Shown: piece by piece, positions 12,956-38,229 of the stretch
Layout of the letters: each line of letters starts with the position of its first letter
Numbering within the stretch: position 1 is the stretch's first letter
Assembly (NCBI GenBank): GCA_964421195.1
Contig: CAYQWL010000001.1
Coordinates: 5,203 to 69,202, forward strand
From: an uncultured bacterium
GTDB taxonomy: Bacteria; Muiribacteriota; UBA9980
DNA length: 64,000 nt
Direction: 5' to 3'
Program-made: the position numbers and the translations under genes
The notes under the pieces: generated by a model
Databases searched by the model: none
Told to the model about the DNA's origin: nothing
Seen by the model: the letters and a program-made list of their open reading frames with translations, nothing else

Positions 12956-13043
12956 GGCCGGCCCCCTTTCTTTACCCGAAAAAAGTAAAAAAATAGAAAA
13001 CCGAAATTTCACGAATTGAAAAATTTAATTATAAATAAATATA

Positions 13044-27428: not shown

Positions 27429-27995
27429 TTACAATCCAATTTCTTCATGCTCCGCCTGCATGGCTTTTAAAGACTCACCTATAAATTCACCGAGCGGTAT
27501 TCCCATCCGTTCAACCGCGCAGATTTTTTCACGATTAGCGCCCGCGGCAAAACGTTTTTCATGAAAACGCTTCATTATAAACTCGACATTAATGGAGGCG
27601 AGTTTTTTATCGGGATGTATAAGCGCGCCCGCCACTATAAGACCGGTAACCTGATCGGCCGAATAAAGCATACGCGACATTTCATCGCCGGCCGGTTCGG
27701 TTTTCGGATGGTTTGTTACAGCCTGAATTATATCATCTAAAAAGCCGTTTTCTTTAAGTATTTCGGCGCTTTTTTTACCGTGCAGCGAAGGATTTTCCCT
27801 GGTAAGCTCGACGTCTATATCATGAACAAGGCCGGCTAACGCCCATTTATGTTTATCGCCGTTAAAGCGGGAAGCGAAATGTTTCATTACAATTTCAACG
27901 GCTATCATATGTTTAATAAGATTATTATTTTTAACATATTTTTTTATTAATTCGATCGCGTCTTCCCTTTGCATGTTACCTCCAGAAATTTTCAC
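27429..27995 (-). CDS. HD-domain phosphohydrolase (YqeK/HDIG-like)
   Basis: 'H...HDID' metal-binding motif (KHMIAVE...GLVHDIDVE) plus a downstream 'NH' motif. Length 188 aa. Confidence 0.6.
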   Translation of the reverse strand: MKISGGNMQREDAIELIKKYVKNNNLIKHMIAVEIVMKHFASRFNGDKHKWALAGLVHDIDVELTRENPSLHGKKSAEILKENGFLDDIIQAVTNHPKTEPAGDEMSRMLYSADQVTGLIVAGALIHPDKKLASINVEFIMKRFHEKRFAAGANREKICAVERMGIPLGEFIGESLKAMQAEHEEIGL

Positions 27996-28080: not shown

Positions 28081-29469
28081 TCATATTTCAATCGAATATT
28101 TTTTCATTTTACGCCACAGAGTGGAATAATCTATTTTTAAAAACCGCGCCGCGCTTTTTTTATCGCCCTTAAACATTTCCAGCGCATTAACGAGCGAAAC
28201 TTTTTCGGCATTTTCAACGGCGCGGTCCAGCGTTACGGGAGAATAAATAACTTTTTCCGAACGCGGCGCGGAACGCATTTGCGTTATAAAGCTCCGGCAT
28301 TCAGCCGGAAGATGTTCGGGCATAAGCTTACCGTCACGGCAAAATATATAAGCATATTCTAATATATTTTCAAGTTCCCGAATATTACCCGGAAAATCAT
28401 AAATCGCAAAAAATTTAAGAACTTTCTCGGATATATCGATTATTTTATTATTTTTAACGCCGTTAAATTTACTTATAAAATGCCGCGCAAGAACTTCGAT
28501 ATCCTCACGGCGCTCCGAAAGAGAAGGGATTTTTATATTAACTATCTTCAAACGATAATACAGGTCTTCTCTGAATTTTTCCCTTTTAACCATAGCCGCG
28601 AGATCTTTATTTGTAGCGGCTATTATTCGCACATCCGCTTTTTTAGTGGATACCGCGCCGAGCGGTTCATATTGCTTATCTTCTATTACACGCAGCAATT
28701 TCACCTGTAAATGAAAAGGCATTTCAGCTATTTCATCAAGAAATATAGTTCCTCCTTCGGCGAGAGCGAAACGGCCGGACTTATTTCTTTTAGCGTCGGT
28801 AAACGCGCCCTTTTCATAACCAAAAAGTTCGGATTCAAGAAGCGTTTCCGGCAAAGCGCCGCAATTAACGGTGATAAAAGGTTTTTTAGAACGTTCGGAT
28901 AAATTATGAAGAGTTTTTGCAACAAGGCTTTTCCCGCAGCCAGATGCTCCTTCTATAAGTACGTTACAATCGCTTTCGGCTATATCCGGCAGAATATTAA
29001 AAAGCGTTTTCATATATTCGCTTTTACCGACAATATCATAATGCGAATATTTTTCATCGAGTTCTTTTTTTAAATTTTCTATACCTGAAACGTCTTTAAA
29101 AATTTCAACGCCGCCTGAAATTTTACCGTTTTCATCAAATAACGGACCGGCCGTAACGCATATAGGTAAGCGCCTGCCCCTCGCCGTTTGAATTTCAATT
29201 CTAACGCCGCCGACCTGCTTTTCTTTTTTTATGGCTTCTTTAAGCGGGCAGGCCGTCCTGCATATCGAAGTATTGAAAACATCAAAACAATTTTTAGTAA
29301 GGGCCGCTCCGCGCGATAAACCCGTAATAAGCTCCGCCGCATGATTAAATGCCGTTATTTTAAAGTCTTCATCCACCAGAAAAATACCATCTTCTATATA
29401 ATCGAGCAACTGATTTACATCCACTAAAACCACTTCCCGGAAAAACCTTTTATTATAACATAAAGACAT
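28081..29469 (-). CDS. σ54-dependent transcriptional activator (bEBP) with an N-terminal Cys-rich PAS sensor and no receiver domain
   Basis: AAA+ Walker A 'GASGCGKS'. The σ54-contact GAFTGA loop is present as 'GAFTDA'. 'ESELFGYEKGAFT' motif. C-terminal Fis-type helix-turn-helix 'AARFLKIDYSTLWRKMKKY'. PAS-like region carrying 5 Cys. Confidence 0.9.
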   Translation of the reverse strand: MSLCYNKRFFREVVLVDVNQLLDYIEDGIFLVDEDFKITAFNHAAELITGLSRGAALTKNCFDVFNTSICRTACPLKEAIKKEKQVGGVRIEIQTARGRRLPICVTAGPLFDENGKISGGVEIFKDVSGIENLKKELDEKYSHYDIVGKSEYMKTLFNILPDIAESDCNVLIEGASGCGKSLVAKTLHNLSERSKKPFITVNCGALPETLLESELFGYEKGAFTDAKRNKSGRFALAEGGTIFLDEIAEMPFHLQVKLLRVIEDKQYEPLGAVSTKKADVRIIAATNKDLAAMVKREKFREDLYYRLKIVNIKIPSLSERREDIEVLARHFISKFNGVKNNKIIDISEKVLKFFAIYDFPGNIRELENILEYAYIFCRDGKLMPEHLPAECRSFITQMRSAPRSEKVIYSPVTLDRAVENAEKVSLVNALEMFKGDKKSAARFLKIDYSTLWRKMKKYSIEI

Positions 29470-29557
29470 AATTAAGTCTTACTGCCGGCTTTTACAATGA
29501 AAATAAATTAGAATTTTTAATTTAAAAACCTTTTATTATAACATAATAATTTTATAA

Positions 29558-29580
29558 TTGCAATAATGCAATTATTGCAA
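29558..29580. promoter_or_regulatory. Perfect 10-bp inverted repeat TTGCAATAAT-GCA-ATTATTGCAA, a candidate enhancer or operator
   Basis: Palindrome read directly from the sequence. It lies 89 nt upstream of the σ54-activator start and about 490 nt upstream of the σ54-like promoter. Confidence 0.5.
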
Positions 29581-30052
29581 AATTGCAGATATTTTATTTT
29601 TATATAATCTCGTATAAGTCCATATCAATAAACCGTACGGACATAAATTTAATTTTTTTATTCAAGTACAAATTGTCAAAATCAATCAGGAAAAATATTA
29701 AAAATACGATATTATTTTTCAAAAAAGATATATTAAAATTATAAAAATTATTGATAATCAGGAAACTTTATATTATAATAAAATACCTTATACTTATCGT
29801 ATGATTCAGAAAAAACTATTTATCTTTTTAGAAAGGCGGTGCCATATATGCATAAAACATTTAAAAACCTTTCGTGACGCTTTAACGGACAAACTTCGGC
29901 GAAGTTTAAAATTAAAAATATGCATATTACGCCTTTCGTTTATAAAACGGAAAAAATATAATTACACGTTTACCCGCTAAATATACACATATTTAACGCT
30001 TGTTTTTAAAAAAAATCATTTAAGGGATAAATAATTAATTTTCTATTTTTAA

Positions 30053-30068
30053 CGGCACGTTTTTCGCT
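30053..30068 (+). promoter_or_regulatory. σ54-type -24/-12 promoter candidate (cGGCACG-N4-TcGC) for the molybdenum-hydroxylase operon
   Basis: GG at 30054-55 and GC at 30066-67 with canonical spacing. GGCACG is a perfect -24 core, and the -12 element matches 3 of 4 (TcGC vs TTGC). It is 70 nt upstream of the 30137 ATG, with RBS AGGAGG. Confidence 0.45.
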
Positions 30069-30136
30069 TATAACGATAAGGAACGCATATCTTATACATT
30101 CGTTTTAAAAAATAAAATATTATTCAGGAGGCATCG

Positions 30137-31003
30137 ATGCTAAAAAAATTAGAAAATTATTACAAACCGAAAAACCTCGAAGAAACTTTAAAACTTTTAA
30201 ACCAGAGTCAGGGACTGACGAAAATAATCGCCGGCGGGACCGCCGTTATGGCCGCTGAAAATAATGAAATCAAAACGCTTATAGATATTAAAAACGCCGG
30301 ACTCGACAAAATAGTAAAAAACGATGACGGCGGTTTACAAATCGGAGCTGCATGCACCATAGCCAATCTTCTCGAATCAAACGAAATAAAAAAATATTGC
30401 GGCGGCCTGATTTATGAAGCGGCGTATTATATAGCAAGCACCCCGCTCAGAAATATGATAACCATAGGCGGAAATATAACTCAAATATTCCCATGGTCAG
30501 ATCTTCCCGCGGCATTAATCATTTCAGACGCTGAAATCCATATCGCCTCAGAAGGCCGGAACCGAAAGTTAAAATATGTTGACGCCGTAAAAAAACATCC
30601 AATAACTATATTAAACAAAAATGAAATAGTGACTTCGGTATCATTTCCTGCTTTACCAGGTTATACCGGCAAATTTATAAAATTTTCAAAAACGAATTTT
30701 GATTATGCTTTAATTGACGCCGGAGTTAACCTGAAAATAAGCGGCGGCATATTTGAAGACGTTCGCTTCGCCGTCAGCGCCGCCGGCACTCTGCCGCAAA
30801 ACTTAAGCGAATCGGCGGCTTCTTTAAAAAACCATAAAACATCCGATGAACAGGCGATTACAGAGTCCCTCGAAAAAGCGGTTTCAGAAACAATATTTAC
30901 CGGCGACAAACGAGCGTCTATCGAATATAAAAAAGAAATACTGCCCGTATTATTAAAACGCCTGATAGATAACGCTGTAAATGAAAATAAAGGGGGCCGT
31001 TAA
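30137..31003 (+). CDS. Molybdenum hydroxylase (xanthine dehydrogenase/CO-dehydrogenase family) FAD-binding subunit
   Basis: CoxM/XdhB-like N-terminus 'YYKPKNLEETLKLL...KIIAGGT'. Length 288 aa. First gene of a three-gene operon. Confidence 0.8.
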   Translation: MLKKLENYYKPKNLEETLKLLNQSQGLTKIIAGGTAVMAAENNEIKTLIDIKNAGLDKIVKNDDGGLQIGAACTIANLLESNEIKKYCGGLIYEAAYYIASTPLRNMITIGGNITQIFPWSDLPAALIISDAEIHIASEGRNRKLKYVDAVKKHPITILNKNEIVTSVSFPALPGYTGKFIKFSKTNFDYALIDAGVNLKISGGIFEDVRFAVSAAGTLPQNLSESAASLKNHKTSDEQAITESLEKAVSETIFTGDKRASIEYKKEILPVLLKRLIDNAVNENKGGR

Positions 31004-31005
31004 TC

Positions 31006-31482
31006 ATGAAAACAATAGAAATTAAAGTAAAAATAAACAACGAAGAAAAAACTCTTACTATAAAACTTAATGAACGCCTTGTAGATGTGCTCAGAGCGGC
31101 AGGATATAAAGGTATTAAAAAAGGATGTTATCAGGGAAGCTGCGGCGCGTGTACGGTCCTTATCAACGGCCGCCCGATGAATTCCTGCATGATACCGGCG
31201 GCAGCCGTTGATGGCGCGGAAATAACCACAATTGAAGGCCTCGGCGATAACGATAATCTTCATCCGCTTCAGGAATCCATACTTGAAACAGGCGGAGTGC
31301 AATGCGGTTATTGCACTCCGGGATTTTTAATATCTTCATACGCGCTTCTAAAATCAAACCCCTCGCCGAACATGGATGAAATAAAACGGGCAACGGATGG
31401 CAATTTATGCCGCTGCACGGGATATGTAAAAAAACTCGAAGCCGTCGCTCTCGCCGCGAAAAAAATAAGAGGTGATAAATAA
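31006..31482 (+). CDS. Molybdenum hydroxylase [2Fe-2S]-binding small subunit
   Basis: Plant-type cluster 'CYQGSCGACTV...NSC'. Second cluster 'CGYCTPG...CRCTGY'. Length 158 aa. Confidence 0.9.
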   Translation: MKTIEIKVKINNEEKTLTIKLNERLVDVLRAAGYKGIKKGCYQGSCGACTVLINGRPMNSCMIPAAAVDGAEITTIEGLGDNDNLHPLQESILETGGVQCGYCTPGFLISSYALLKSNPSPNMDEIKRATDGNLCRCTGYVKKLEAVALAAKKIRGDK

Positions 31483-31484
31483 TT

Positions 31485-33887
31485 ATGAATAATACAGACA
31501 ATCATATAATCGATAAATACTCAAGCACGGCGCCGCTCGAAATTAAAGACGGCCAGGATTTTGAAATAGTAAATAAAAGCCTTAATAAAATAGAAGGCCC
31601 CGGACTCGTTACGGGAAAACCAATGTTCACTGATGATTTTAATTTTCACGGCATGCTTTATGCAAAAATTTTAACGAGCCCTCATGCGCACGCTGAAATT
31701 ATAAATATAGACGTTTCACGCGCAGAAAAACTTCCCGGCGTAAAAGCGATACTAACCCATAAAGACTTGCCGCGCATAATACACACTACCGCAGGCCAGG
31801 GATATCCCGAACCGTCTCCTTATGACAGTTTTACGCTCGATAAAAAAGTACGTTTTATCGGTGACCGTGTAGCGGCGGTAGCGGCGGATTCTCTTGAAAC
31901 GGCAAAAGAAGCCGTTAATTTAATCGAAGTGGAATATAAAATATTAGAACCTTTATTAGATCCGCTCGAAGCGCAAAAAGAAGGCGCGCCGATAATTCAT
32001 GACGAACCTGAAGCGCGTATGATAATACCTCTCGCTTATGATAAAAATAAAAACCTCGCCGCGCATGCCGAAATGAGCGAAGGCGACGTCGAAGCCGCAC
32101 TGAAAACTTCAGATTATATTTTTGAACATACTTATGAATCACATTATGCTCAACATTGCCCGATGGAACCACATATATGTATAACGCACTTAGACCCTAA
32201 CGATAGAATCAATATTATAACCAGCACGCAGGTGCCGTTTCACACGCGCCGCATAGTCGCTCAGTCACTCAATATTCCCGTAAAAAAAGTCCGCGTAATC
32301 AAACCGCGAATCGGCGGCGGGTTCGGCGGAAAACAGGAAATGCTGATCGAAGATATCTGCGCCGCGCTCACCATAAAAACAAGAAAACCCGTTAAACTTG
32401 AATACAGCCGCCATGAAGAATTTATGAGCGCGCGCACGCGCCATCCTCAACATATCATTTTGCGCACGGGCATCAATAAAAGCGGAGAAGTTACCGCTAT
32501 AGATATGAAAATAACTATGAATACGGGCGCTTATGGCTCAGCCGCGCTTACGGTTTTATGCAATTCGGCGAGCAAAGTTCTCCCGCTTTTCAACAAAGTT
32601 AAAAATATCCGTTTTTACGGCGATTCGGTTTATACAAACCTTCCAGTCGGCGGAGCTTATCGAGGTTACGGCGCCACGCAGGCATATCAGGCGGTAGGGC
32701 AGCAGGCAGATATAATGTGCCGTAAACTTGGAATAGACATTATTGAATTTTATAAAAAACAACACATAAAAAAAGGCGAAAGCTCACCGGTATTTAGAAA
32801 AATGGGTGAAGGCAAAGAAGGCGTAGAAATGAATATAGGTTCATGCGGCCTTACTCGCTGTATAGATACCGGCGTAAAAGAATTCGGCTGGTACGACAAA
32901 TTTAATAAAAAACGGATTGAAGGCGACTGGCATTATGGAGTGGGAATGGTATGCCTTATGCAGGGTTCGAGCATTCCTGAAATAGATATGGGCGCGGCTT
33001 ATATTAAAATGAACGATGACGGCTCATTCAACCTATCTCTCGGCGCGACGGATCTCGGCACCGGAAGCGATACCATATTCGCGCAAATGGCGGCGGAAAT
33101 ATTAACCGTCAAAACCGACGATATAATAGTTTACTCTTCAGATACCGATATGACGCCTTTCGATGTGGGCGCTTACGCATCTTCCACCACATATCTTTCT
33201 GGAGGCGCGGTCATTAAAACGGCTGAAAAAGTCAAAGCTAAAATAGCGAACGCCGCGGCAGAAATGCTTGAAACTACCATAGAAGACTTAACCTTCGAAT
33301 CCGCGACGGTCAAAAGTAAATCAAAAAATAAAAAAGTAACATTTAAAGAAATAGCCTGCTATACGCTTTACGAAAAAAATCAATATCAAATAGACGGCTC
33401 GGCATCGCACATCACACATAAGTCACCGCCGCCATTTTCTGCGCACTTCGTCTATATCGCCGTCGATATTAAAACCGGCTTCGTTAAACCCATTAAATAT
33501 CTTAATGTAACCGATTGCGGAACCGCCATTAATCCAAAATTCGCCGAAGGGCAATGCGAAGGCGCGGTAATGAACGGCATAAGTTTCGCTTTATGCGAAG
33601 AATTCATATTCGATAAAAAAGGCAGATTGCTTAATACATCTTTTAATGATTATAAAATATTCAATTCAATCGATATGCCTGAAATCAAAACAATTTTAAT
33701 TCCAACTTACGAAGAAACAGGGCCTTTCGGCGCTAAAAGCGTTTCTGAAATCGGCATTAACGGAGCGCTTCCCGCCTTCGCAAACGCCATATACGACGCG
33801 GTCGGAGTAAGATTATTCAGCGGCCCTTATACTCCCGAACGCGTATTAAAAGCTATAAACGAAAAAAAAAAAGAAACAATAACATAA
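31485..33887 (+). CDS. Molybdenum hydroxylase molybdopterin-binding large subunit (xanthine dehydrogenase/aldehyde oxidoreductase family)
   Basis: 800 aa. Motifs 'GGGFGGKQ' and 'GAYRGYGATQ'. C-terminal 'GESGPFGAKSVSEIG'-type motif. Confidence 0.9.
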   Translation: MNNTDNHIIDKYSSTAPLEIKDGQDFEIVNKSLNKIEGPGLVTGKPMFTDDFNFHGMLYAKILTSPHAHAEIINIDVSRAEKLPGVKAILTHKDLPRIIHTTAGQGYPEPSPYDSFTLDKKVRFIGDRVAAVAADSLETAKEAVNLIEVEYKILEPLLDPLEAQKEGAPIIHDEPEARMIIPLAYDKNKNLAAHAEMSEGDVEAALKTSDYIFEHTYESHYAQHCPMEPHICITHLDPNDRINIITSTQVPFHTRRIVAQSLNIPVKKVRVIKPRIGGGFGGKQEMLIEDICAALTIKTRKPVKLEYSRHEEFMSARTRHPQHIILRTGINKSGEVTAIDMKITMNTGAYGSAALTVLCNSASKVLPLFNKVKNIRFYGDSVYTNLPVGGAYRGYGATQAYQAVGQQADIMCRKLGIDIIEFYKKQHIKKGESSPVFRKMGEGKEGVEMNIGSCGLTRCIDTGVKEFGWYDKFNKKRIEGDWHYGVGMVCLMQGSSIPEIDMGAAYIKMNDDGSFNLSLGATDLGTGSDTIFAQMAAEILTVKTDDIIVYSSDTDMTPFDVGAYASSTTYLSGGAVIKTAEKVKAKIANAAAEMLETTIEDLTFESATVKSKSKNKKVTFKEIACYTLYEKNQYQIDGSASHITHKSPPPFSAHFVYIAVDIKTGFVKPIKYLNVTDCGTAINPKFAEGQCEGAVMNGISFALCEEFIFDKKGRLLNTSFNDYKIFNSIDMPEIKTILIPTYEETGPFGAKSVSEIGINGALPAFANAIYDAVGVRLFSGPYTPERVLKAINEKKKETIT

Positions 33888-33983
33888 ATTTATAATTTTA
33901 TAACAGGCCCATTTATTTAGCATGAAAAACATAGTAAAATAATATAAACCATTACAATTAAAAATATTTTTATTTTTTATACG

Positions 33984-34020
33984 GCGCCGGATACTTTTTC
34001 CGGCGCTCATTTTATTATTT
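33984..34020 (+). terminator. Rho-independent terminator after the molybdenum-hydroxylase operon
   Basis: GC-rich stem GCGCCGGA/TCCGGCGC with a 7-nt loop, followed by TCATTTTATTATTT. Confidence 0.6.
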
Positions 34021-34199
34021 AAATAAAAATTATTTAAATAAATTATATTCAAGATATATATGAACCCATTCTAAAAAAGGCAATTTTTAAAAAATTCAAA
34101 ACTTGTTTATAATTAGTTTCACGACCAATTTCATTTATTTTCTTAATTTTTATAGCAGACTTATATATAATAAAAATTTAAAAATATAATTTAAAAATA

Positions 34200-34228
34200 T
34201 TGACAATTTTGTTAGTTTATGCTAACAT
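34200..34228 (+). promoter_or_regulatory. σ70-like promoter (TTGACA-17-TAACAT) overlapped by the palindrome TGTTAG-N6-CTAACA (candidate operator) upstream of the methyltransferase gene
   Basis: Perfect -35 at 34200-34205 and -10 at 34223-34228. Inverted repeat at 34210-15 and 34222-27. Confidence 0.4.
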
Positions 34229-34306
34229 TTATTTATTAACCTAATAAAAGTTAGAAATAATTAACTTTTTTTTATATAATTTTCATAAACTGAAAGCGAG
34301 GAAATC

Positions 34307-35131
34307 ATGAATAAGCATAAAATAAAATTAAGCGACGATATCGCCGAAACTCTTTTAATAACTTTATATGCAAAAGCGGTTGAAAGCCGAAAAAAAAAGC
34401 CTTTAATTTATGATAAAAAAGCATGTGAATTAATAGATGATATAGATTATGATTTTTCTAAATTTAAAAACTCAAAAGCGAGCATTGCAGGAACGGCTAT
34501 TCGTTCATCACATTTCGACAATATCACCAAAAATTTCATTTCTAAAAAGGAAAACGCGATAGTAGTTTCGATAGGCTGCGGTCTGGACGCAAGAACTTAC
34601 AGGCTTGATGAATACGTAAATAAGGCGATTTTTTACAGCCTTGATATCGAAGAGGTTATAAATATTAGAAAGCGGCTGCTCCCGCCGTCTAAAAACGAAC
34701 ATTACATAAGCGCTTCAATGCTTTCAACAAACTGGATGGACGAGTTAAAAACGAAACACCCCTGTGGAAATTTCATTTTTATTATAGAAGGTGTTTTAAT
34801 GTATTTTGACGAAAAAGACAATCGATCTGTATTTAAAGAACTGGCCGAAAGATTTCATGACGCTGAAATTCATTTTGATATGCTTAATACATGGATGAGT
34901 AAAAAATCAGCAATACACGATAGTGTAAGTAAAATGAAAGCATCCTTTAAATACGGAATAGATGACGAAAAAGAAATCGAAAAATGGCACCCACGTTTAA
35001 AACATTTAAAAACATATTATTTTAACGATTTCAATGGATGGAGAAAAATGGGGATTACTTTATCGGTGCTCATGACGATTTTTTCCGTTTTTAAAAATTC
35101 ATCGAGAATGCTCGCGTATTATATATCATAA
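34307..35131 (+). CDS. Class I SAM-dependent methyltransferase, LCM/TcmP (leucine carboxyl methyltransferase-like) family
   Basis: 'ETLLITLYAKA' plus the 'VVSIGCGLDARTYRL' motif characteristic of PF04072-type O-methyltransferases. Length 274 aa. Confidence 0.65.
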   Translation: MNKHKIKLSDDIAETLLITLYAKAVESRKKKPLIYDKKACELIDDIDYDFSKFKNSKASIAGTAIRSSHFDNITKNFISKKENAIVVSIGCGLDARTYRLDEYVNKAIFYSLDIEEVINIRKRLLPPSKNEHYISASMLSTNWMDELKTKHPCGNFIFIIEGVLMYFDEKDNRSVFKELAERFHDAEIHFDMLNTWMSKKSAIHDSVSKMKASFKYGIDDEKEIEKWHPRLKHLKTYYFNDFNGWRKMGITLSVLMTIFSVFKNSSRMLAYYIS

Positions 35132-35206
35132 AAAAACGGCCATAAGCCGTAAAATTATAACAGTTTTCCTCCAGCGCGCGTAATAATATAAACGCGTATA
35201 AATTCA

Positions 35207-35237
35207 AAGGCCGGCTTATGCATCCGGCCTTTTTTTT
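35207..35237. terminator. Bidirectional terminator between the convergent methyltransferase and hydrolase genes
   Basis: AAAGGCCGG-cttatgcat-CCGGCCTTTTTTTT, with an A-run before and a T-run after. Confidence 0.65.
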
Positions 35238-35300
35238 AAAATTCTAAATGTTTCGTAAAATTATTTTAATTAAAATACTATTTATCGCGTTCATACATTT

Positions 35301-36596
35301 TTATTCAAAAACTTCATCAAGCCAGTCAAAAAGAACCTGGCTCATCAAGCTGCGGTTTTCCATTATGCAATGATTTGTAGCGCCTTCATTCGAAGGAGTA
35401 ATAACAAGCTTTTTATGAGGATTCAAAAAATTATCCATACATAATTTTTGCTGACGTTTAACTTCTTCACTTTTATATTCCCCTTCGCCAACTATAAGAA
35501 GCGCTGGAACTTCGATTTTTGAAGGATCAAATGAAAAGCCTATATTCGCTTTCGCCAATTCCGACGGCTTATCCATTGATACGCCCCAGCGCCAGCAAAT
35601 AGCCTTCACTATATTTCCATGAAAGCTCGACCATGAATCGATTTCTTTCTGATCGGCTATAACGGCCGGCATGGTGGAAAAAAGCGGATATGCATCTACT
35701 ACGGCGCTGCTCATAGCAATCGCCTTTATTCTCTTATCATACATGGCCGCCTGAGGAACAAAACCGCCGCCGCCGCTATAACCGTAGCAAGCAAGTTTAG
35801 CCGGGTCAACGTCGCCGCGGCTTAAAGCATAATCAATAACAGCTTTCATCGGCACGTTCATATCAGGCCTGAAAGGCTTGCCGTACATCGGTAAAAGGCC
35901 CTGGCCGGGAAGATCAACAGTCATAAAATTATAACCGTGTTCATAAGTTTGAGGAGCAATATAAAAAAAGAGGTCTTCAGCAAATGTTTCGCCGCCGCCT
36001 ATCATAACAAGCGTTTTTACCGGCTCCGGACCGGATTTAGCCTTACGGAAAAAAACCGGGATAACTGTATCCTCATATGGAATTTCAAAATATTCAAGAG
36101 GCGGCTCAAAAAGTTCGCCGGCTTTTTTCATTACCTGACGGCTTTTTAACGCCCTTTCTTTCAATCTTGGATCATCGGGAAGCATGGCAAGAAGCGATAT
36201 GCGATAATAATAAGCCGCCCTTGAAAGCTGCTGCCGGGCGCTAACTTTATGGCCATAAGCCAGCGATTTTAATCCTCGGGCCTCAACGAGACGCGCAAGC
36301 GTAAACCATTCCTTTTGCCAGCTTGCCGCATCGCCGTCTTTAATTTTTGATACCGTATAAAAAGCCTCGCCAATTTCACAGCCATGATTCACTACGGAGC
36401 CAAGCACTAAAGTGCCGAAATTAAAATCCATATCAGTATCATTAAAATGATATTTAACTCCTGTATCATGAGCGTCAAAAACCTTTTTAGTTTCTTGCGC
36501 ATAAACTGAAACAACACCATTAACAAAAACAATTGAAAATACTGAAATTATTAAAAATACAAAAAATATAATTATACTTTGTTTCTTATTTATCAT
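35301..36596 (-). CDS. Secreted or membrane-anchored α/β-hydrolase-fold protein (dienelactone hydrolase/S9-like)
   Basis: N-terminal signal or anchor. Nucleophile elbow G-Y-S-G-G in 'CYGYSGGGGF'. Length 431 aa. Confidence 0.5.
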   Translation of the reverse strand: MINKKQSIIIFFVFLIISVFSIVFVNGVVSVYAQETKKVFDAHDTGVKYHFNDTDMDFNFGTLVLGSVVNHGCEIGEAFYTVSKIKDGDAASWQKEWFTLARLVEARGLKSLAYGHKVSARQQLSRAAYYYRISLLAMLPDDPRLKERALKSRQVMKKAGELFEPPLEYFEIPYEDTVIPVFFRKAKSGPEPVKTLVMIGGGETFAEDLFFYIAPQTYEHGYNFMTVDLPGQGLLPMYGKPFRPDMNVPMKAVIDYALSRGDVDPAKLACYGYSGGGGFVPQAAMYDKRIKAIAMSSAVVDAYPLFSTMPAVIADQKEIDSWSSFHGNIVKAICWRWGVSMDKPSELAKANIGFSFDPSKIEVPALLIVGEGEYKSEEVKRQQKLCMDNFLNPHKKLVITPSNEGATNHCIMENRSLMSQVLFDWLDEVFE

Positions 36597-36759
36597 AAAA
36601 CTAAAAATTACTCCTTATGCTAATTTTATTTAATTCACAATCATTGAAGGCATATAAATACTGCTTTTTAAAAAATTTAATGCATATATAATAATTTAAA
36701 ATATTTCATCATAATACGCTCATTAAATTTTATACGCTATAACCGTTATACAATAATAA

Positions 36760-38229
36760 TTATCTGGCCATATCACCTCCCAACAACTTCATTAATGCGC
36801 CATAAATACAAAAAGAAAGCACAAGCCCTATCGCCCATGAATTATTTACGACCATACCGCCAAAAGATCCCGAAACAAGATCCATTATAAAAGGGGTAAC
36901 TGATAAGGCGTATGATATATATGCCACATAATTAACTCCGCCTGTATAGTTATAAAGTGCCGACTTATCTGAATACAAATCATAAAGACTCAAACGCCGC
37001 TTTCTAATGTAATAATAATCGGCTATATAAAGCCCGGTTAACGGCCCAAGAAATGAACCATAAGTCCCGAGCCAGTTAAATATATAACCCGTAGGTTCAG
37101 CATAAAGCTTCCACGGCATTATTATAAGCCCTATAAATCCGGTTATTAAAACGCCATATTTATAAGGAATATTTTTAGGGCTTATATTTGAAAATATATT
37201 CGCCGGCCCAACAACATTCGCCGCAATATTAGTAGTTATAATAGCGACAAAAACAAGAAAACCTCCAATAAGGCTCAACCACGGCATGTTAAAAGCCACA
37301 AGCGTATGCACGGGATTCCATATTAAACGGTCAAAAGCTATTATTGAGCCCAGCGTGCCAAAAACGCCTATCATAGAAAAAAATGCCATGGCAGGCGGAA
37401 GTCCTATAAACTGACCGAGCGCTTGATCTTTCTGGCTTGAAGCAAATCTTGTAAAATCAGAAATATTCAAAGCTAAAGGCGCCCAATATGAAATCATAGC
37501 ATTCAACGAAGGAAAAAATAATTCCCTGAAAGGCCGTGCTTCGACAGGCCTGCCAAGATCCATACGATTTCCGGCCTCAAGCAGGGCCGACAACGACCCC
37601 GCCTGATAAATCGCCCATGACGCTATTGAAATGCCGATTGTTACAAGCACAGGCACGCAATAAATTTCAATCGCTTTAACAGCCTCATGGCCTCTATAAG
37701 CAACGGCAAGATTAGCCGCTAAAAATAAAAAAAATATTATAAATTTAACGTGCGGATAAAGCGCAAGCGATGGAAAAAAACCGGCGAATGCGATAAACAT
37801 AAACTCGCCGCCGATCCAGCAATTTATGCCGAACCAGCCGCAGGCGACGCCGGCCCTTAAAAGCAACGGAAAATGCGCGCCTTTTTTTCCAAACGACGCA
37901 CGGCAAAAAACCGGGTATGAAATGCCATATTTAGTTCCGGCGGCGGCAAGCATAATCATGGGTACCAACACTATCAAATTACCAAGAAATATCGTAAAAA
38001 CAGCCTCACGCCAGTTCATACCGCTTGTTATCAAACCTGACGAAAGCGTATAAGTAGGAATGCATATACTCATGCCGGCCCATAATGAAGCTATATGCCA
38101 TTTACTCCATGTACGGTTTTTAATTTCAACCGACTTCAAATCTTCACTATAAAGCGAATCGCTTTTAACTATATCGGAAGCCGCACTATCGAGCTCGACA
38201 AGTCCGCCTTTTTCGATTTGATAACTCAT
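36760..38229 (-). CDS. NCS1-family nucleobase:cation symporter (cytosine/purine/allantoin/hydantoin permease-like)
   Basis: 12-TM profile. N-terminal 'NWREAVFTIFLGNLIVLVPMIMLAAAGTKYGISYPVFCRASFG' matches the NCS1 signature region. Length 489 aa. Confidence 0.75.
   Translation of the reverse strand: MSYQIEKGGLVELDSAASDIVKSDSLYSEDLKSVEIKNRTWSKWHIASLWAGMSICIPTYTLSSGLITSGMNWREAVFTIFLGNLIVLVPMIMLAAAGTKYGISYPVFCRASFGKKGAHFPLLLRAGVACGWFGINCWIGGEFMFIAFAGFFPSLALYPHVKFIIFFLFLAANLAVAYRGHEAVKAIEIYCVPVLVTIGISIASWAIYQAGSLSALLEAGNRMDLGRPVEARPFRELFFPSLNAMISYWAPLALNISDFTRFASSQKDQALGQFIGLPPAMAFFSMIGVFGTLGSIIAFDRLIWNPVHTLVAFNMPWLSLIGGFLVFVAIITTNIAANVVGPANIFSNISPKNIPYKYGVLITGFIGLIIMPWKLYAEPTGYIFNWLGTYGSFLGPLTGLYIADYYYIRKRRLSLYDLYSDKSALYNYTGGVNYVAYISYALSVTPFIMDLVSGSFGGMVVNNSWAIGLVLSFCIYGALMKLLGGDMAR

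What the first reader, a model, noticed from the sequence alone, without database searches (positions are those of the whole stretch)
28081..38229. σ54/PAS-activator-controlled molybdenum hydroxylase module with LCM methyltransferase, secreted hydrolase and NCS1 nucleobase permease
A receiver-less, Cys-rich PAS-bEBP (28081-29469, minus strand) is encoded divergently from a three-gene FAD / [2Fe-2S] / Mo-pterin hydroxylase operon. That operon is followed by an LCM/TcmP-type methyltransferase, an α/β-hydrolase and an NCS1 transporter.

The 667-bp AT-rich intergenic region carries a σ54-type -24/-12 element (cGGCACG-N4-TcGC at 30053-30068), 70 nt upstream of the operon. Further upstream is a perfect TTGCAATAAT-GCA-ATTATTGCAA palindrome (29558-29580), a plausible enhancer site for the activator.

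Direct metabolite sensing by a PAS domain coupled to σ54 control of a xanthine-dehydrogenase-family enzyme plus a nucleobase permease suggests an inducible purine, pyrimidine or N-heterocycle hydroxylation pathway. The substrate cannot be assigned from sequence. The methyltransferase is an atypical companion for such enzymes.
Basis: partly seen in the sequence, partly recalled or inferred. Interest (0 to 1): 0.6.

Follow-up and report, generated by a model that had tools for sequence, protein, structure and literature searches.

The report
Molybdenum-enzyme operon with unrecognised UGA leader
An uncultured anaerobe's three-gene molybdenum-enzyme operon does have a sigma-54 promoter and a neighbouring activator (an ordinary arrangement), but its most conserved control element is an undescribed nine-codon upstream reading frame ending in UGA inside a folded RNA, and the methyltransferase, hydrolase and transporter are only neighbours.

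Summary
The sigma-54 promoter (30053-30068) is the best GG-N10-GC site in the window and recurs at the same place in four orthologous loci. It overlaps the activator gene's own -35 box.

The "module" is not supported. The hydrolase and NCS1 genes are on the opposite strand, behind a terminator, with no sigma-54 site. The LCM methyltransferase sits in a 28.5% GC island and is absent from relatives. The Mo subunit lacks the xanthine-binding Glu802 and Arg880. It is closest to E. coli XdhD (a urate dehydroxylase), selenium-dependent nicotinate dehydrogenase and 4-hydroxybenzoyl-CoA reductase. The substrate remains unknown.

It has a sigma-70-like promoter and a 9-codon uORF (consensus M-x-K-I-H-G-N-W-L) that ends in UGA in 8 of 8 lineages. 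An invariant hairpin follows 13-14 nt later, and a covarying helix sequesters the uORF's ribosome-binding site and start codon. The frame after UGA stays open through the helix's 3' strand in 8 of 8. There is no Rfam or literature match.

I read it as a UGA-decoding leader-peptide attenuator. Its mechanism is inferred, not shown, and this window's uORF peptide has diverged.

The parts
26298..27386 (-). EFR1-family ferredoxin (flavodoxin-like domain plus 2x[4Fe-4S]); candidate electron partner
   Evidence: NCBIfam NF038196 scores 101 bits against a cut-off of 75. A 50%-identical counterpart lies at the same place in L004. The Fer4 genes divergent from the operon in L003 and L220 match the window's protein only over ~55 residues at 35-39%, so they are not clear orthologues.
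27429..27995 (-). HD-domain protein between the ferredoxin and the activator
   Evidence: Pfam HD. The L004 neighbour is 80% identical.
28081..29424 (-). sigma-54 enhancer-binding protein: 3-Cys PAS sensor, AAA+ domain, Fis-type HTH. The probable true start is GTG 29424; the longest ORF runs to ATG 29469.
   Evidence: Pfam PAS_9, Sigma54_activat, AAA_lid_14 and HTH_8. Walker A is GASGCGKS and the GAFTGA loop reads GAFTDA (sequence). The L004 orthologue is 86% identical and starts at the equivalent of 29424. The C-x8-C-x3-C motif is invariant in 19 of 19 PAS homologues.
29441..29546 (.). Window-specific 83-bp duplication: perfect 23-nt direct repeats at 29441-29463 and 29524-29546, covering the annotated N-terminus of the activator
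   Evidence: the repeat finder family D2. The duplication is absent from L004 and L067.
29535..29563 (-). sigma-70-type promoter of the activator gene (TTGCAA-17-TATAAT with an extended TG)
   Evidence: Promoter scan, 10 of 12 matches. The same -35/-10 arrangement is conserved in L004 and L067.
29557..29587 (.).
   Evidence: Five hexamers fall within 31 bp, against 0.36 per kb across the window. Homologous clusters occur only in the activator-bearing loci L004 and L067, and none in L001, L135 or L220.
29751..29779 (+). sigma-70-type promoter of the leader (TTGATA-17-TATAAT)
   Evidence: It is the best promoter match in the region, 11 of 12. Equivalent promoters precede the leader in L220 (11 of 12) and L135 (10 of 12).
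29824..29945 (+). Conserved leader RNA (whole element)
   Evidence: Covariance model R1 matches eight distinct loci at 40-143 bits. nhmmer finds no other full-length copies in 1.56 Mb of held sequence. Rfam gives no match.
29831..29854 (+). P1 5' strand: the Shine-Dalgarno-like GAAAGGCG (29831-29838) and the start-codon segment AUAUGCAUA (29846-29854)
   Evidence: Minimum-free-energy fold, z = -2.9. Duplex energy -22.0 against -8.1 kcal/mol for shuffles, with 0 of 500 as good. Across the family, 16 pairs are 92% paired and 10 show compensatory changes.
29848..29877 (+). uORF of 9 codons plus UGA. It reads MHKTFKNLS* here; the family consensus is M-x-K-I-H-G-N-W-L*.
   Evidence: In seven canonical relatives, the variable columns at codon positions 1/2/3 number 2/2/6 of 7. 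Gly uses four codons, Ile three, and Leu UUA/UUG/CUU/CUC. The stop is UGA in 8 of 8, whereas window genes use TGA in 5 of 34.
29891..29907 (+). Invariant hairpin AAACUUC-GGC-GAAGUUU, 13 nt after the UGA
   Evidence: Exact match. The seven stem pairs never vary in eight leaders, and the loop is GGA in L220. The spacer is 13 or 14 nt in all eight. The hairpin alone is only -3.5 kcal/mol.
29919..29937 (+). P1 3' strand (UAUGCAUAU, then CGCCUUUC), acting as an anti-Shine-Dalgarno segment
29959..29961 (+). First in-frame stop (TAA) after the UGA; a read-through ribosome would cross the hairpin and the P1 3' strand and stop here
   Evidence: The frame after UGA is open for 24-30 codons in 8 of 8 leaders, and its stop lies 4-27 nt beyond P1. 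The other frames are open for 24 codons or more in only 4 of 16 cases.
30053..30068 (+). sigma-54 -24/-12 promoter CGGCACG-N4-TCGCT
   Evidence: It is the only GG-N10-GC site scoring 10 or more of 12 in 128 kb. Homologous sites occur in L003, L220, L221 and L067.
30137..33887 (+). Operon for a three-subunit Mo-hydroxylase/dehydroxylase: FAD 30137-31003, [2Fe-2S] 31006-31482, Mo-pterin 31485-33887
   Evidence: Pfam and NCBIfam. The three genes are tightly spaced or overlapping. The triad is the only unit conserved in all related loci.
34307..35131 (+). LCM-family methyltransferase; a neighbour, not part of the system
   Evidence: Pfam LCM at 66 bits; TIGR00027 is below its cut-off. The surrounding kb (34001-35000) has 28.5% GC. 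There is a 420-nt gap after the Mo gene, and no related locus carries this gene.
35206..35238 (.). GC-rich hairpin plus T-run between the convergent LCM and hydrolase genes (likely terminator)
   Evidence: Read from the sequence AAAGGCCGGCTTATGCATCCGGCCTTTTTTTT.
35301..38229 (-). Separate minus-strand unit: NCS1 transporter (36760-38229) then FrsA-like hydrolase with a signal-like N-terminus (35301-36596)
   Evidence: Pfam. PDB best matches are Mhp1 at 124 bits and SMU_737 at 159 bits. Orthologues 84-85% identical lie beside the operon in L218, and NCS1 alone does in L067. No sigma-54-like site lies upstream.

Best explanation
The locus encodes a three-subunit, XdhD/XdhA-like molybdenum hydroxylase or dehydroxylase of unknown substrate, in a Wallbacteria-like anaerobe. 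Two stacked control layers appear to act on it.

Layer 1 (well supported). A sigma-54 promoter lies 84 nt before the FAD gene (its -12 element ends 68 nt before the start codon). It is presumably activated by the divergently encoded activator, which has a 3-Cys PAS sensor. The activator's probable binding sites are TGCAAT dyads that overlap the -35 box of its own sigma-70 promoter, so it would also autoregulate.

Layer 2 (new; existence supported, mechanism inferred). Between the dyads and the sigma-54 promoter sits a separately promoted ~120-nt leader. A ribosome loads co-transcriptionally on a 9-codon uORF and reaches a conserved UGA. An invariant hairpin is held 13-14 nt downstream, just beyond the ribosome's leading edge.

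The outcome at that UGA would decide whether the long-range helix P1 forms. The possible outcomes are release by RF2, nascent-peptide-dependent stalling, or read-through. P1 pairs the uORF's Shine-Dalgarno and AUG with an anti-SD strand. A read-through ribosome would run across the hairpin and the P1 3' strand and stop 4-27 nt beyond it, keeping P1 open. Normal termination would let P1 close.

In lineages without a sigma-54 promoter (L001, L135), this leader is probably the main 5' control of the operon, acting by attenuation. In this window it would add a second, sigma-70-driven input. The window's uORF has lost the conserved HGNWL motif, so the peptide-dependent step may be altered or disabled here.

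The LCM methyltransferase is an unrelated insertion. The hydrolase and NCS1 genes form an independent neighbouring unit with at most a loose functional link.
For: Genes and domains:
- Assignments.
- AAA+ motifs and the GAFTDA loop.

Sigma-54 promoter:
- It is the best site in the window, and sites scoring 9 of 12 or better recur in 5 of 9 orthologous upstream regions at 58-153 nt from the start.

TGCAAT dyads:
- They occur only in activator-bearing loci and overlap a conserved -35 box.

Leader:
- Eight distinct copies exist, all directly upstream of orthologous FAD-FeS-Mo operons whose FAD subunits are only 51-70% identical.
- Substitutions in the uORF show a codon pattern, and the stop is UGA in 8 of 8 against 15% TGA usage in window genes.
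- P1 has 10 of 16 pairs with compensatory changes and 92% of cells paired. Slid controls give 32-55%, and 0 of 500 shuffles match it.
- Each sequence folds into P1 on its own.
- The UGA-to-hairpin spacer is 13-14 nt while its sequence is free.
- The frame after UGA is open in 8 of 8 leaders against 4 of 16 other frames. My hand calculation gives a hypergeometric p of about 7e-4.
- A sigma-70 promoter precedes the leader.
- In L135 the read-through stop overlaps the 5' arm of a terminator-like hairpin.

Precedent:
- PepNL is a 14-residue arrest peptide that acts at UGA and is relieved by read-through (PMC11890864).

Neighbours:
-.
Against: - In the window, L067, L003 and L220 the leader lies upstream of the sigma-54 promoter, so sigma-54-initiated transcripts would not contain it.
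- No canonical intrinsic terminator follows P1 in the window or L220.
- L221 has the sigma-54 promoter but no leader.
- The window's uORF differs from the consensus at 5 of 6 conserved residues.
- There are only eight leaders, from one narrow clade. L004 and L067 are close relatives, as are L001 and L201.
- The covariation alignment was fitted to the model.
- L004 has the activator but a degenerate -12 element.
- rpoN is not in the window, and the genome could not be searched.
- No expression data exist.
Confidence: 0.55

Rival explanations
1. All seven genes form one sigma-54/PAS-activator regulon: an inducible nucleobase or N-heterocycle hydroxylation pathway comprising hydroxylase, methyltransferase, secreted hydrolase and NCS1 importer. 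The palindrome is the enhancer, and the PAS domain senses the substrate directly.
For: - The sigma-54 promoter and activator are real.
- NCS1 stays next to the operon in the window, L218/L219 and L067 despite different intervening genes.
- The hydrolase has a distant match to 2,6-dihydroxy-pseudo-oxynicotine hydrolase (54.6 bits).
- The closest characterised Mo homologue, E. coli XdhD, acts on a purine.
- E. coli has a comparable neighbourhood: xdhABC, ygeV and nucleobase transporters.
Against: - The hydrolase and NCS1 genes are on the opposite strand, behind a terminator, with no sigma-54-like site.
- LCM is absent from all relatives and sits in an AT-rich island.
- L004, L003, L220, L221 and L001 have other genes downstream.
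- The lineages that share the NCS1 adjacency are closely related, so it may simply be inherited synteny.
- Glu802 and Arg880 are not conserved.
- The PAS domain carries an invariant 3-Cys motif typical of a generic, very large subfamily.
Confidence: 0.12
2. The leader is a selenium sensor. The UGA is decoded as selenocysteine when Sec-tRNA/SelB is available, and the invariant hairpin is a SECIS element. Read-through then opens P1 and permits expression of a selenium-dependent molybdenum hydroxylase.
For: - The stop is UGA in 8 of 8 leaders, and the frame beyond it is open in 8 of 8.
- The hairpin meets three of the four criteria of the bacterial SECIS model given in PMC13188914: a 3-nt loop starting GG, a 7-bp stem, and 20-21 nt from UGA to the loop.
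- Sequence invariance of the hairpin suggests recognition by a protein.
- The Mo subunit's active-site segment matches selenium-dependent nicotinate dehydrogenase best (100 bits).
- The protein scores 645 bits on TIGR03313 and is 39% identical to XdhD. The XdhD pathway is stated to need Se.
Against: - The hairpin is only -3.5 to -4.3 kcal/mol and fails the SECIS energy criterion of -7.5 kcal/mol or lower.
- No selA, selB, selC or selD, no tRNA-Sec and no convincing selenoprotein gene turned up in about 300 kb of related sequence. That sample is too small to exclude them.
- Selenocysteine insertion does not explain the conserved KIHGNWL peptide.
- The TIGR03313 score is far below its cut-off of 1102.
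- The region after UGA is not conserved as protein, and the hairpin falls in two different frames.
Confidence: 0.12
3. The element works at the DNA level or independently of the operon. Either the 17-bp palindrome and flanking inverted repeats are protein-binding sites (an enhancer or operator for the sigma-54 promoter), or the unit is an independent small RNA or micropeptide gene that merely lies upstream.
For: - The element sits 150-240 bp upstream of the sigma-54 promoter, where enhancers are expected.
- The palindrome is sequence-invariant with no covariation.
- The leader has its own promoter, and in several loci its 3' strand ends in a U-rich tract.
Against: - The palindrome co-occurs perfectly with the uORF and P1, but not with the sigma-54 promoter. 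It is present in L001 and L135, which lack such a promoter, and absent from L221, which has one.
- The GGC-to-GGA change in L220 breaks the 8-1-8 DNA dyad but keeps the RNA stem.
- P1 covaries as RNA.
- Substitutions in the uORF show codon periodicity.
- The element is always in the same orientation directly upstream of the same operon.
Confidence: 0.12
4. The element is a metabolite-binding riboswitch, and the small ORF is incidental.
For: It is a structured, conserved 5' element upstream of a catabolic operon. The fold z-scores range from -2 to -7.
Against: - Variation in the conserved core is confined almost entirely to third codon positions. It includes a switch between Leu codon families (UUR and CUY) and use of all four Gly codons.
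- The inner helix P2 is not conserved.
- The stop codon identity is conserved.
- Rfam gives no match.
Confidence: 0.05

Closest known systems
E. coli ygeV-xdhABC / ygfK-ssnA-ygfM-xdhD purine-catabolic region
   Same: A sigma-54 enhancer-binding protein is encoded beside XDH-family Mo enzymes and nucleobase transporters. The window's Mo subunit is 39% identical to XdhD (553 bits) and 35% to XdhA. XdhD-YgfM reduces uric acid to isoxanthine (bioRxiv 10.1101/2025.05.19.654654).
   Different: - None of the other uricolytic genes (ssnA, ygfK/uacX, hyuA, ygeW/X/Y) is present here or in related loci.
- The gene order here is FAD-FeS-Mo, with a separate FeS subunit.
- The activator shares only the AAA+ and HTH part with YgeV (41% identity), and the sensor domain differs.
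- NCBIfam equivalog cut-offs are not reached.
- I did not examine the E. coli region for a leader.
Eubacterium barkeri nicotinate dehydrogenase (selenium-dependent; PDB 3HRD) and Thauera 4-hydroxybenzoyl-CoA reductase (PDB 1RM6)
   Same: These are the best solved-structure matches: 4-HBCR alpha at 342 bits, and NdhL plus NdhM at 207 + 142 bits. The active-site segment matches NdhL best, at 100 bits. All are anaerobe enzymes of the same fold.
   Different: - The Mo subunit here is not split as in nicotinate dehydrogenase.
- The FAD subunit (288 aa) scores only 64 bits on the 4-HBCR beta model against a cut-off of 405, so the extra [4Fe-4S] loop is not indicated.
- NdhL has Arg where this protein has Ser, at the position of XDH Arg880.
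Termination-stage regulatory leader peptides: TnaC, SpeFL and PepNL
   Same: All have a short conserved uORF upstream of a catabolic gene, with action at the stop codon. PepNL (14 aa) stalls at UGA and is relieved by UGA read-through to a downstream stop (PMC11890864). Here the stop is UGA in 8 of 8 leaders and the read-through frame is open in 8 of 8. From my own knowledge: the tna leader is also followed by a ~200-nt untranslated spacer.
   Different: - There is no detectable sequence similarity.
- This uORF is only 9-10 codons long.
- It is combined with an invariant hairpin at a fixed distance and a helix that sequesters its own SD and AUG. I do not know of either feature in TnaC or PepNL.
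- Stalling, the ligand and read-through are all untested.
- 'HGNWL' is absent from the searchable literature.
Bacterial SECIS elements
   Same: The stem-loop follows a UGA and has a small G-starting apical loop. The UGA-to-loop distance is within 16-37 nt (model in PMC13188914).
   Different: - The hairpin energy is too weak.
- It lies in a tiny uORF rather than a selenoprotein gene.
- No Cys-containing homologue exists for comparison.
- Whether the lineage has the selenocysteine machinery is unknown.
NtrC-type enhancers overlapping a sigma-70 promoter (for example glnAp1/glnAp2; from my own knowledge)
   Same: Clustered dyad sites lie upstream of a sigma-54 promoter and overlap the -35 box of a divergent sigma-70 promoter, giving activation plus autorepression.
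   Different: The sites are about 400-480 bp from the sigma-54 promoter, with a whole leader transcription unit in between. Binding is untested.

Membership tests
Bacterial enhancer-binding proteins (sigma-54 activators) | AAA+ sigma-54 interaction domain with Walker A/B motifs and a GAFTGA loop, plus a C-terminal HTH | tested here: met
   PF00158 at 232 bits and HTH_8 at 41 bits. The sequence shows GASGCGKS, FLDEI and EKGAFTDA, which is one substitution in GAFTGA.
Bacterial enhancer-binding proteins (sigma-54 activators) | A -24/-12 (GG-N10-GC) promoter at the target operon | tested here: met
   The site at 30053-30068 is the best in the window. Conserved sites occur in L003, L220, L221 and L067.
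Bacterial enhancer-binding proteins (sigma-54 activators) | rpoN present in the genome | not testable with these tools
   No Sigma54 factor domain was found among the window's ORFs.
Xanthine dehydrogenase (purine-specific XDH) | Substrate-binding Glu802 and Arg880 (bovine numbering) | tested here: not met
   In the alignment to bovine XDH chains, GGKE aligns with GGKQ and MER aligns with CNS.
Xanthine dehydrogenase (purine-specific XDH) | NCBIfam equivalog score above the curated cut-off | tested here: not met
   XdhA_XDHase 654 against 780; PRK09970 647 against 916; pucD 388 against 784; xdhB 250 against 850.
XDH/CODH-family Mo hydroxylase (general) | Ald_Xan_dh_C + MoCoBD_1 + MoCoBD_2 subunit, with [2Fe-2S] (Fer2 + Fer2_2) and FAD_binding_5/CO_deh_flav_C subunits | tested here: met
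   All of these Pfam domains score far above their gathering thresholds.
4-hydroxybenzoyl-CoA reductase | Equivalog scores for the alpha, beta and gamma subunits; the beta subunit has an extra [4Fe-4S]-binding insertion | tested here: not met
   Alpha 548 against 995; beta 64 against 405; gamma 153 against 258. The FAD subunit is 288 aa.
Selenium-dependent molybdenum hydroxylases | Genomic co-occurrence with selD, yqeB and yqeC | not testable with these tools
   None of these genes is in the window or in about 300 kb of related loci. Whole genomes were not searchable.
Selenium-dependent molybdenum hydroxylases | TIGR03311, TIGR03312 or TIGR03313 scores above cut-off | tested here: not met
   Se_sel_red_Mo 645 against 1102; Se_sel_red_FAD 62.5 against 241.5; Se_dep_XDH 314 against 830.
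Leader-peptide (uORF) attenuators | A short ORF with a ribosome-binding site, conserved at the amino-acid level, immediately upstream of the regulated operon | tested here: met
   The peptide is M-x-K-I/T-H-G-N/R-W-L in seven lineages, with third-position variation and a purine-rich SD 4-9 nt upstream.
Leader-peptide (uORF) attenuators | Mutually exclusive RNA structures that couple ribosome position to a terminator or to the downstream ribosome-binding site | tested here: inconclusive
   The covarying helix P1 is established. A terminator-like hairpin at the read-through stop is seen only in L135. No terminator follows the leader in the window or L220.
Leader-peptide (uORF) attenuators | Translation of the uORF, with ribosome stalling or read-through, alters expression | not testable with these tools
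   This needs toeprinting, ribosome profiling or reporter assays.
Bacterial SECIS | [quoted passage not shown] | tested here: met
   The loop is GGC or GGA, the stem has 7 bp, and the distance is 13-14 + 7 = 20-21 nt.
Bacterial SECIS | Minimum free energy of -7.5 kcal/mol or lower | tested here: not met
   The hairpin gives -3.5 to -4.3 kcal/mol.
Bacterial SECIS | Organism encodes SelA, SelB and tRNA-Sec | not testable with these tools
   No tRNA genes were found in the window or in 19 related loci.
Any Rfam family | Covariance-model match | tested here: not met
   No match at gathering threshold in the window. Only chance-level matches appeared at E up to 10 in the intergenic region and up to 1 in L135 and L220.
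NCS1 nucleobase:cation symporters | Transp_cyt_pur domain; a specific equivalog for the substrate | tested here: inconclusive
   Pfam scores 306 bits, so the family criterion is met. TIGR00800 scores 313 against 353, and allantoin permease 232 against 620. The best PDB match is Mhp1 at 124 bits. The substrate is not assignable.
LCM / TIGR00027 methyltransferases | Family model above cut-off | tested here: inconclusive
   Pfam LCM scores 66.5 against 22.3, which is met. TIGR00027 scores 69.8 against 93.55, which is not met.

The most novel reading that the evidence does not exclude
The leader is a translational selenium sensor. The conserved UGA of the 9-codon uORF would be read as selenocysteine by SelB bound to the invariant hairpin. 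Read-through across the anti-SD strand would open helix P1 and switch on a selenium-dependent molybdenum enzyme only when selenium is available. A wider version of the same idea is that the leader is a new class of attenuator whose input is the decoding fate of a single UGA codon (release factor 2, near-cognate Trp-tRNA or Sec-tRNA), tuned by the nascent peptide KIHGNWL.
Probability: 0.12. Interest if true: 0.85.

Novelty: new variant of a known kind. Interest (0 to 1): 0.55.

Why it matters
It is a sigma-54/activator-controlled XDH-family operon, comparable to the E. coli ygeV-xdh region.

The leader is not ordinary. It is a small, sharply defined cis-element with a conserved 9-residue uORF, an obligatory UGA, an invariant hairpin at a fixed distance and a covarying SD-sequestering helix. 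It has no Rfam or literature counterpart and comes from a candidate phylum with no cultured members.

If it works as inferred, it would add a very short member to the few known bacterial peptides that act at the termination step. It would also give a compact system for asking how stop-codon decoding (release, stalling or read-through, possibly selenocysteine) is turned into gene control.

The work also corrects the functional picture. The enzyme's nearest characterised relatives are reductive dehydroxylases and a selenium enzyme rather than classical xanthine dehydrogenase. The methyltransferase, hydrolase and permease should not be annotated as one pathway with it.

Tried and rejected
1. Exact look-up of the window's Mo protein, to recover the source contig, failed twice.

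2. I scanned genome contigs and metagenome contigs for the 17-mer. Nearly all of the ~200 hits were chance matches. My first regular-expression filter missed two true copies, which nhmmer then recovered.

3. RNAalifold on plain MAFFT alignments of all leaders found only the hairpin, because the P1 strands were out of register. I solved this with a covariance model built from three in-register sequences.

4. Rfam at permissive thresholds gave only chance hits, to snoRNA and miRNA families.

5. I tested whether the 17-bp palindrome is the sigma-54 enhancer and rejected that reading. It tracks the uORF and P1, not the sigma-54 promoter.

6. A word-indexed search with the PAS domain returned only two proteins. 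The exhaustive HMMER search was needed instead.

7. I looked for selenoprotein-like TGA-bridged ORFs and for tRNA-Sec in about 300 kb of related loci. Nothing convincing was found.

8. Related Mo-subunit clades at 75-76% identity (L005, L215-L217, L222) have other contexts and no leader, so the element is confined to the clade at 81% identity or above.

9. I looked for a sigma-54 site upstream of NCS1 and found none.

10. The first sigma-54 scoring script had an index error and returned nothing. It was corrected.

Full report
**1. Observation**

- A 462-codon ORF at 28081-29469 (-) with PAS, a sigma-54 interaction AAA+ domain and a Fis-type HTH, and no receiver domain.
- Three tightly packed plus-strand genes: FAD subunit 30137-31003, [2Fe-2S] subunit 31006-31482 and Mo-pterin subunit 31485-33887.
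- An LCM-family methyltransferase at 34307-35131.
- An FrsA-like alpha/beta-hydrolase with a signal-like N-terminus at 35301-36596.
- An NCS1 transporter at 36760-38229.

The -24/-12 motif CGGCACGTTTTTCGCT (30053-30068) and the perfect palindrome TTGCAATAAT-GCA-ATTATTGCAA (29558-29580) are both present.

Three corrections apply.
- The hydrolase and NCS1 genes are on the minus strand, convergent with the operon, beyond a GC hairpin plus T-run at about 35206-35238.
- The activator most likely starts at GTG 29424. Its 86%-identical orthologues start there. The 15 extra codons lie in a window-specific 83-bp duplication marked by perfect 23-nt repeats.
- The organism is probably a member of Candidatus Wallbacteria or UBP16. 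This rests on the names attached to the nearest homologues.

**2. Is the sigma-54 promoter more than chance?**

With two mismatches allowed, the 16-mer consensus occurs 6 times in the window against 5.7 expected. On that test the motif is unremarkable.

Requiring the invariant GG-N10-GC changes the picture. The site at 30053 is then the only one on either strand scoring 10 or more of 12. Only 8 sites score 9 or more in 128 kb, which gives about 0.04 expected per 600-nt upstream region.

Equivalent sites occur at the same relative place, 58-153 nt before the FAD start codon:
- L003: AGGCATGTTTCTTGCC
- L220: AGGCATAAATTTTGCA
- L221: GGGCATGAATTTTGCA
- L067: AGGCATACTTTTTGCT

L004 has a degenerate copy, AGGCATATTTTTTTCC. 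L001 and L135 have none.

The promoter is therefore supported by conservation. rpoN itself could not be checked. It is not in the window, and the source genome could not be retrieved.

**3. The palindrome**

The palindrome is part of a cluster of five TGCAAT/ATTGCA hexamers at 29557-29587, against 0.36 per kb across the window. L004 and L067, the other two loci with the divergent activator, have homologous clusters. The activator-less loci L001, L135 and L220 have none, and L003 and L221 have a single isolated hexamer elsewhere.

The leftmost dyad supplies the -35 hexamer of a conserved sigma-70 promoter (TTGCAA-17-TATAAT, minus strand, 29563 to 29535) that would drive the activator gene. The dyads lie about 480 bp from the sigma-54 promoter.

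Its position argues that autoregulation is at least one of its roles. Binding is untested.

**4. The 'module'**

I retrieved genomic contexts for twelve relatives of the Mo subunit.

- Only the FAD-FeS-Mo triad is constant.
- The LCM gene is found in none of them. It follows a 420-nt gap and lies in a 28.5% GC kb, against 39-45% around it.
- Orthologues of the hydrolase (85% identical) and NCS1 (84%) lie convergent to the operon in L218/L219, and NCS1 alone does in L067.
- L004, L003, L220, L221 and L001 have unrelated genes there.
- No sigma-54-like site precedes NCS1.

NCS1 is thus a recurrent neighbour within a group of fairly close relatives. That is weak evidence for a functional link and is not evidence for co-regulation.

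A more persistent neighbour is a ferredoxin gene. An EFR1-family gene lies in the window and L004, and Fer4 genes lie divergent from the operon in L003 and L220. The latter two are only distantly similar to the window's.

**5. The enzyme**

No NCBIfam equivalog cut-off is reached. The best scores are XdhA_XDHase (654 against 780) and TIGR03313 (645 against 1102).

Among solved structures, 4-hydroxybenzoyl-CoA reductase alpha scores 342 bits. The two pieces of selenium-dependent nicotinate dehydrogenase score 207 + 142 bits, and classical XDH only about 150. In the active-site segment nicotinate dehydrogenase is clearly best, at 100 bits against 69 and 56. In that alignment the xanthine-binding Glu802 and Arg880 of bovine XDH correspond to Gln and Ser.

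Against E. coli, the protein is 39% identical to XdhD and 35% to XdhA. A 2025 preprint reports that XdhD-YgfM reduces uric acid to isoxanthine.

The nearest characterised relatives are therefore reductive dehydroxylases and a selenium enzyme. Together with the ferredoxin neighbour, this suggests (inference) a low-potential, possibly reductive reaction on an aromatic or heteroaromatic hydroxyl group. The rest of the uricolytic gene set is absent, so the substrate cannot be assigned.

E. coli also provides the precedent for the general arrangement: xdhABC, the sigma-54 activator ygeV and nucleobase transporters are neighbours. YgeV resembles the present activator only in its AAA+ and HTH part.

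**6. The sensor domain**

An exhaustive HMMER search found 17,775 representative proteins with this type of PAS domain, many of them multi-PAS proteins.

In 19 of 19 aligned homologues the motif C-x8-C-x3-C is invariant.

This points to a metal, Fe-S or redox function for a widespread PAS subtype rather than to a substrate-specific pocket. That is an inference only.

**7.

Comparing upstream regions showed a ~120-nt block shared by the window and by L004, L003 and L001, whether or not an activator is present. Collection scans, further context look-ups and an nhmmer search raised this to eight distinct copies: window, L004, L067, L003, L001, L201, L135 and L220. Where the contig extends far enough (all but the 1.8-kb L201), each copy lies in the same orientation directly upstream of an orthologous operon.

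The FAD subunits of these operons are only 51-70% identical. Neighbouring clades lack the element.

**8. Anatomy of the leader (window coordinates)**

- A strong sigma-70-type promoter, TTGATA-17-TATAAT, lies at 29751-29779. Counterparts precede the leader in L220, L135 and L003.
- A purine-rich SD is followed by a 9-codon ORF at 29848-29877.
- In seven lineages the peptide is M(L/H/F)K(I/T)HG(N/R)WL. Variable columns at codon positions 1/2/3 number 2/2/6 of 7. Ile uses three codons, Gly all four, and Leu UUA/UUG/CUU/CUC. This pattern indicates selection on the peptide, not on RNA.
- All eight ORFs end in UGA, although window genes use TAA in 27 of 34 cases and TGA in 5 of 34.
- After a spacer of free sequence but fixed length (13 or 14 nt) comes the hairpin AAACUUC-GGC-GAAGUUU (29891-29907). 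It is invariant except for a GGA loop in L220. It is thermodynamically weak, at -3.5 kcal/mol, so its conservation implies sequence-specific recognition.
- A segment starting 11-18 nt after the hairpin (29919-29937 in the window) pairs with the SD and start codon (29831-29854).

**9. Support for helix P1**

- Every sequence folds this way on its own, with z-scores from -2 to -7.
- Duplex energies beat shuffled partners in 94-100% of trials.
- On a covariance-model alignment, the 16 pairs are 92% paired and 10 show compensatory changes.
- Partners slid by 1-3 columns give 32-55% pairing. None of 500 shuffles matches the observed values.
- One caveat applies: the alignment was fitted to the model.

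**10. The frame after UGA**

The reading frame stays open for 24-30 codons beyond the UGA in 8 of 8 leaders. It crosses the hairpin and the P1 3' strand and closes 4-27 nt after P1. The other two frames are open that far in only 4 of 16 cases. My hand calculation gives a hypergeometric p of about 7e-4, which is less impressive once relatedness is allowed for.

The hairpin falls in two different frames, and the extension is not conserved as protein. The openness, rather than a product, therefore seems to be what is selected.

**11. How the leader probably works**

The features are those of a translation-coupled attenuator whose decision point is the UGA.

- The P1 5' strand is the uORF's own ribosome-binding site, so only a ribosome that loads before the 3' strand is transcribed can translate it.
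- With UGA in the A site, the ribosome's leading edge would lie a few nucleotides short of the hairpin. This rests on established footprint dimensions, from my own knowledge.
- Release would let P1 close.
- Read-through would carry the ribosome over the anti-SD strand and keep P1 open.
- In L135 the read-through stop overlaps the 5' arm of a terminator-like hairpin (GACCGTTTCGGTC plus a T-run). That is the classical attenuator geometry.

The conserved peptide suggests nascent-chain control of termination, as in TnaC and especially PepNL. PepNL is a 14-residue peptide that blocks RF2 at UGA and is relieved when Trp-tRNA reads through to a downstream stop (PMC11890864).

Shown here: the uORF's coding signature, the UGA, the spacing, the hairpin invariance, P1 covariation and the open frame. 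Inferred: stalling, read-through, any ligand, and the effect on the operon.

**12. Difficulties with this reading**

- In four lineages, including the window, the sigma-54 promoter lies downstream of the leader. Sigma-54 transcripts would bypass it, so it would act only on sigma-70-initiated read-through transcripts or have some other role.
- Most copies lack an obvious terminator.
- L221 lacks the leader altogether.
- The window's uORF reads MHKTFKNLS. It keeps the length, the UGA, P1 and the hairpin but has lost HGNWL.
- A 14-nt copy of a sequence from the duplicated activator-promoter region lies inside the uORF, and this may be chance.

**13. The selenium reading**

The hairpin satisfies the loop, stem and distance criteria of the consensus bacterial SECIS model (PMC13188914), and the enzyme's relatives include selenium-dependent hydroxylases.

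Against this, the hairpin fails the energy criterion, and selenocysteine insertion does not explain the peptide conservation. No selenocysteine machinery or selenoprotein was found in the limited sequence available.

I keep it as the most novel reading that the evidence does not exclude, at about 12%.

**14. Other alternatives**

- A DNA-level enhancer is unlikely. The palindrome tracks the uORF and P1 rather than the sigma-54 promoter, and the L220 variant preserves the RNA stem but not the DNA dyad.
- A riboswitch with an incidental ORF is unlikely, given the codon periodicity.
- Rfam has no matching family, and 'HGNWL' does not occur in the searchable literature.

**15. Verdict**

The flagged system is a genuine but ordinary sigma-54/activator-controlled XDH-family operon, with unrelated neighbours wrongly grouped into it. 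The interesting object is the unflagged leader. It is a new family within the known class of leader-peptide/RNA attenuators. Its architecture is well supported and its mechanism is unproven.

Noticed in passing
window 38552-60474 (-): Three giant ORFs (2640, 1903 and 2680 aa) carry CHB_HEX_C_1/Fn3_assoc repeats, Big_13 and a C-terminal legume-lectin-like domain. Their GC content (46-53%) is markedly higher than the rest of the window (29-45%). They are probably surface or secreted adhesin-like proteins.
   Followed up: partly
window 10562-13012 (-): An 816-aa protein consists almost entirely of ankyrin repeats (Ank_2 at 642 bits), which is unusual in bacteria.
   Followed up: no
window 29441-29463 and 29524-29546: A perfect 23-nt direct repeat (an 83-bp duplication) is specific to this window. 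It duplicates the -10 region of the activator promoter and creates the apparent 15-codon N-terminal extension of the activator ORF.
   Followed up: yes
window 29520-29533 and 29859-29872: A 14-nt exact repeat, ATTTAAAAACCTTT, has its second copy inside the window's diverged uORF, covering the codons that replace HGNW. It could be a small conversion patch or chance.
   Followed up: partly
L222 1-22352 (ENA ERZ21878443 contig_1, 5.18 Mb): A related organism has a run of genes: a ModABC-like transporter, DUF134, MOSC, Nitro_FeMo-Co, Prx, TrmO_N, and then several consecutive sets of XDH-family subunit genes including three Mo subunits. It has no leader.
   Followed up: no
L001 5688-12609 (Wallbacteria JASDSY010000002.1): In this lineage the leader-bearing operon is preceded by an HGD-D/BcrAD-type dehydratase/reductase plus activase pair. 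It is followed by an 82-aa ThiS/MoaD-like ORF, which is also present in L218/L219. This may hint at an aromatic or CoA-ester pathway and at sulfur or selenium transfer to the cofactor.
   Followed up: no
L012 6180-6233: This locus carries only the 3' half of the L135-type leader (hairpin plus P1 3' strand), joined to a TPR-like coding sequence. It is either a rearrangement or a co-assembly chimera.
   Followed up: partly
L004 2281-6588: A 1435-aa CheB-CheR-PAS-histidine kinase-receiver fusion is inserted between the HD gene and the activator. The window has no such insertion.
   Followed up: no
L221 5455-5928 (-): A 108-aa ORF and a 46-aa Catalase-rel ORF are in the same frame, separated by a single TGA. 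This may be a read-through or recoding candidate, or simple adjacency.
   Followed up: no
L003 2490-2530 and L221 535-570: Between the sigma-54 promoter and the FAD start codon, both activator-less loci share a block TTATGCAATAT(T/C)ACA...TAATATT that contains one TGCAAT hexamer. It may be an operator in the 5' UTR.
   Followed up: no
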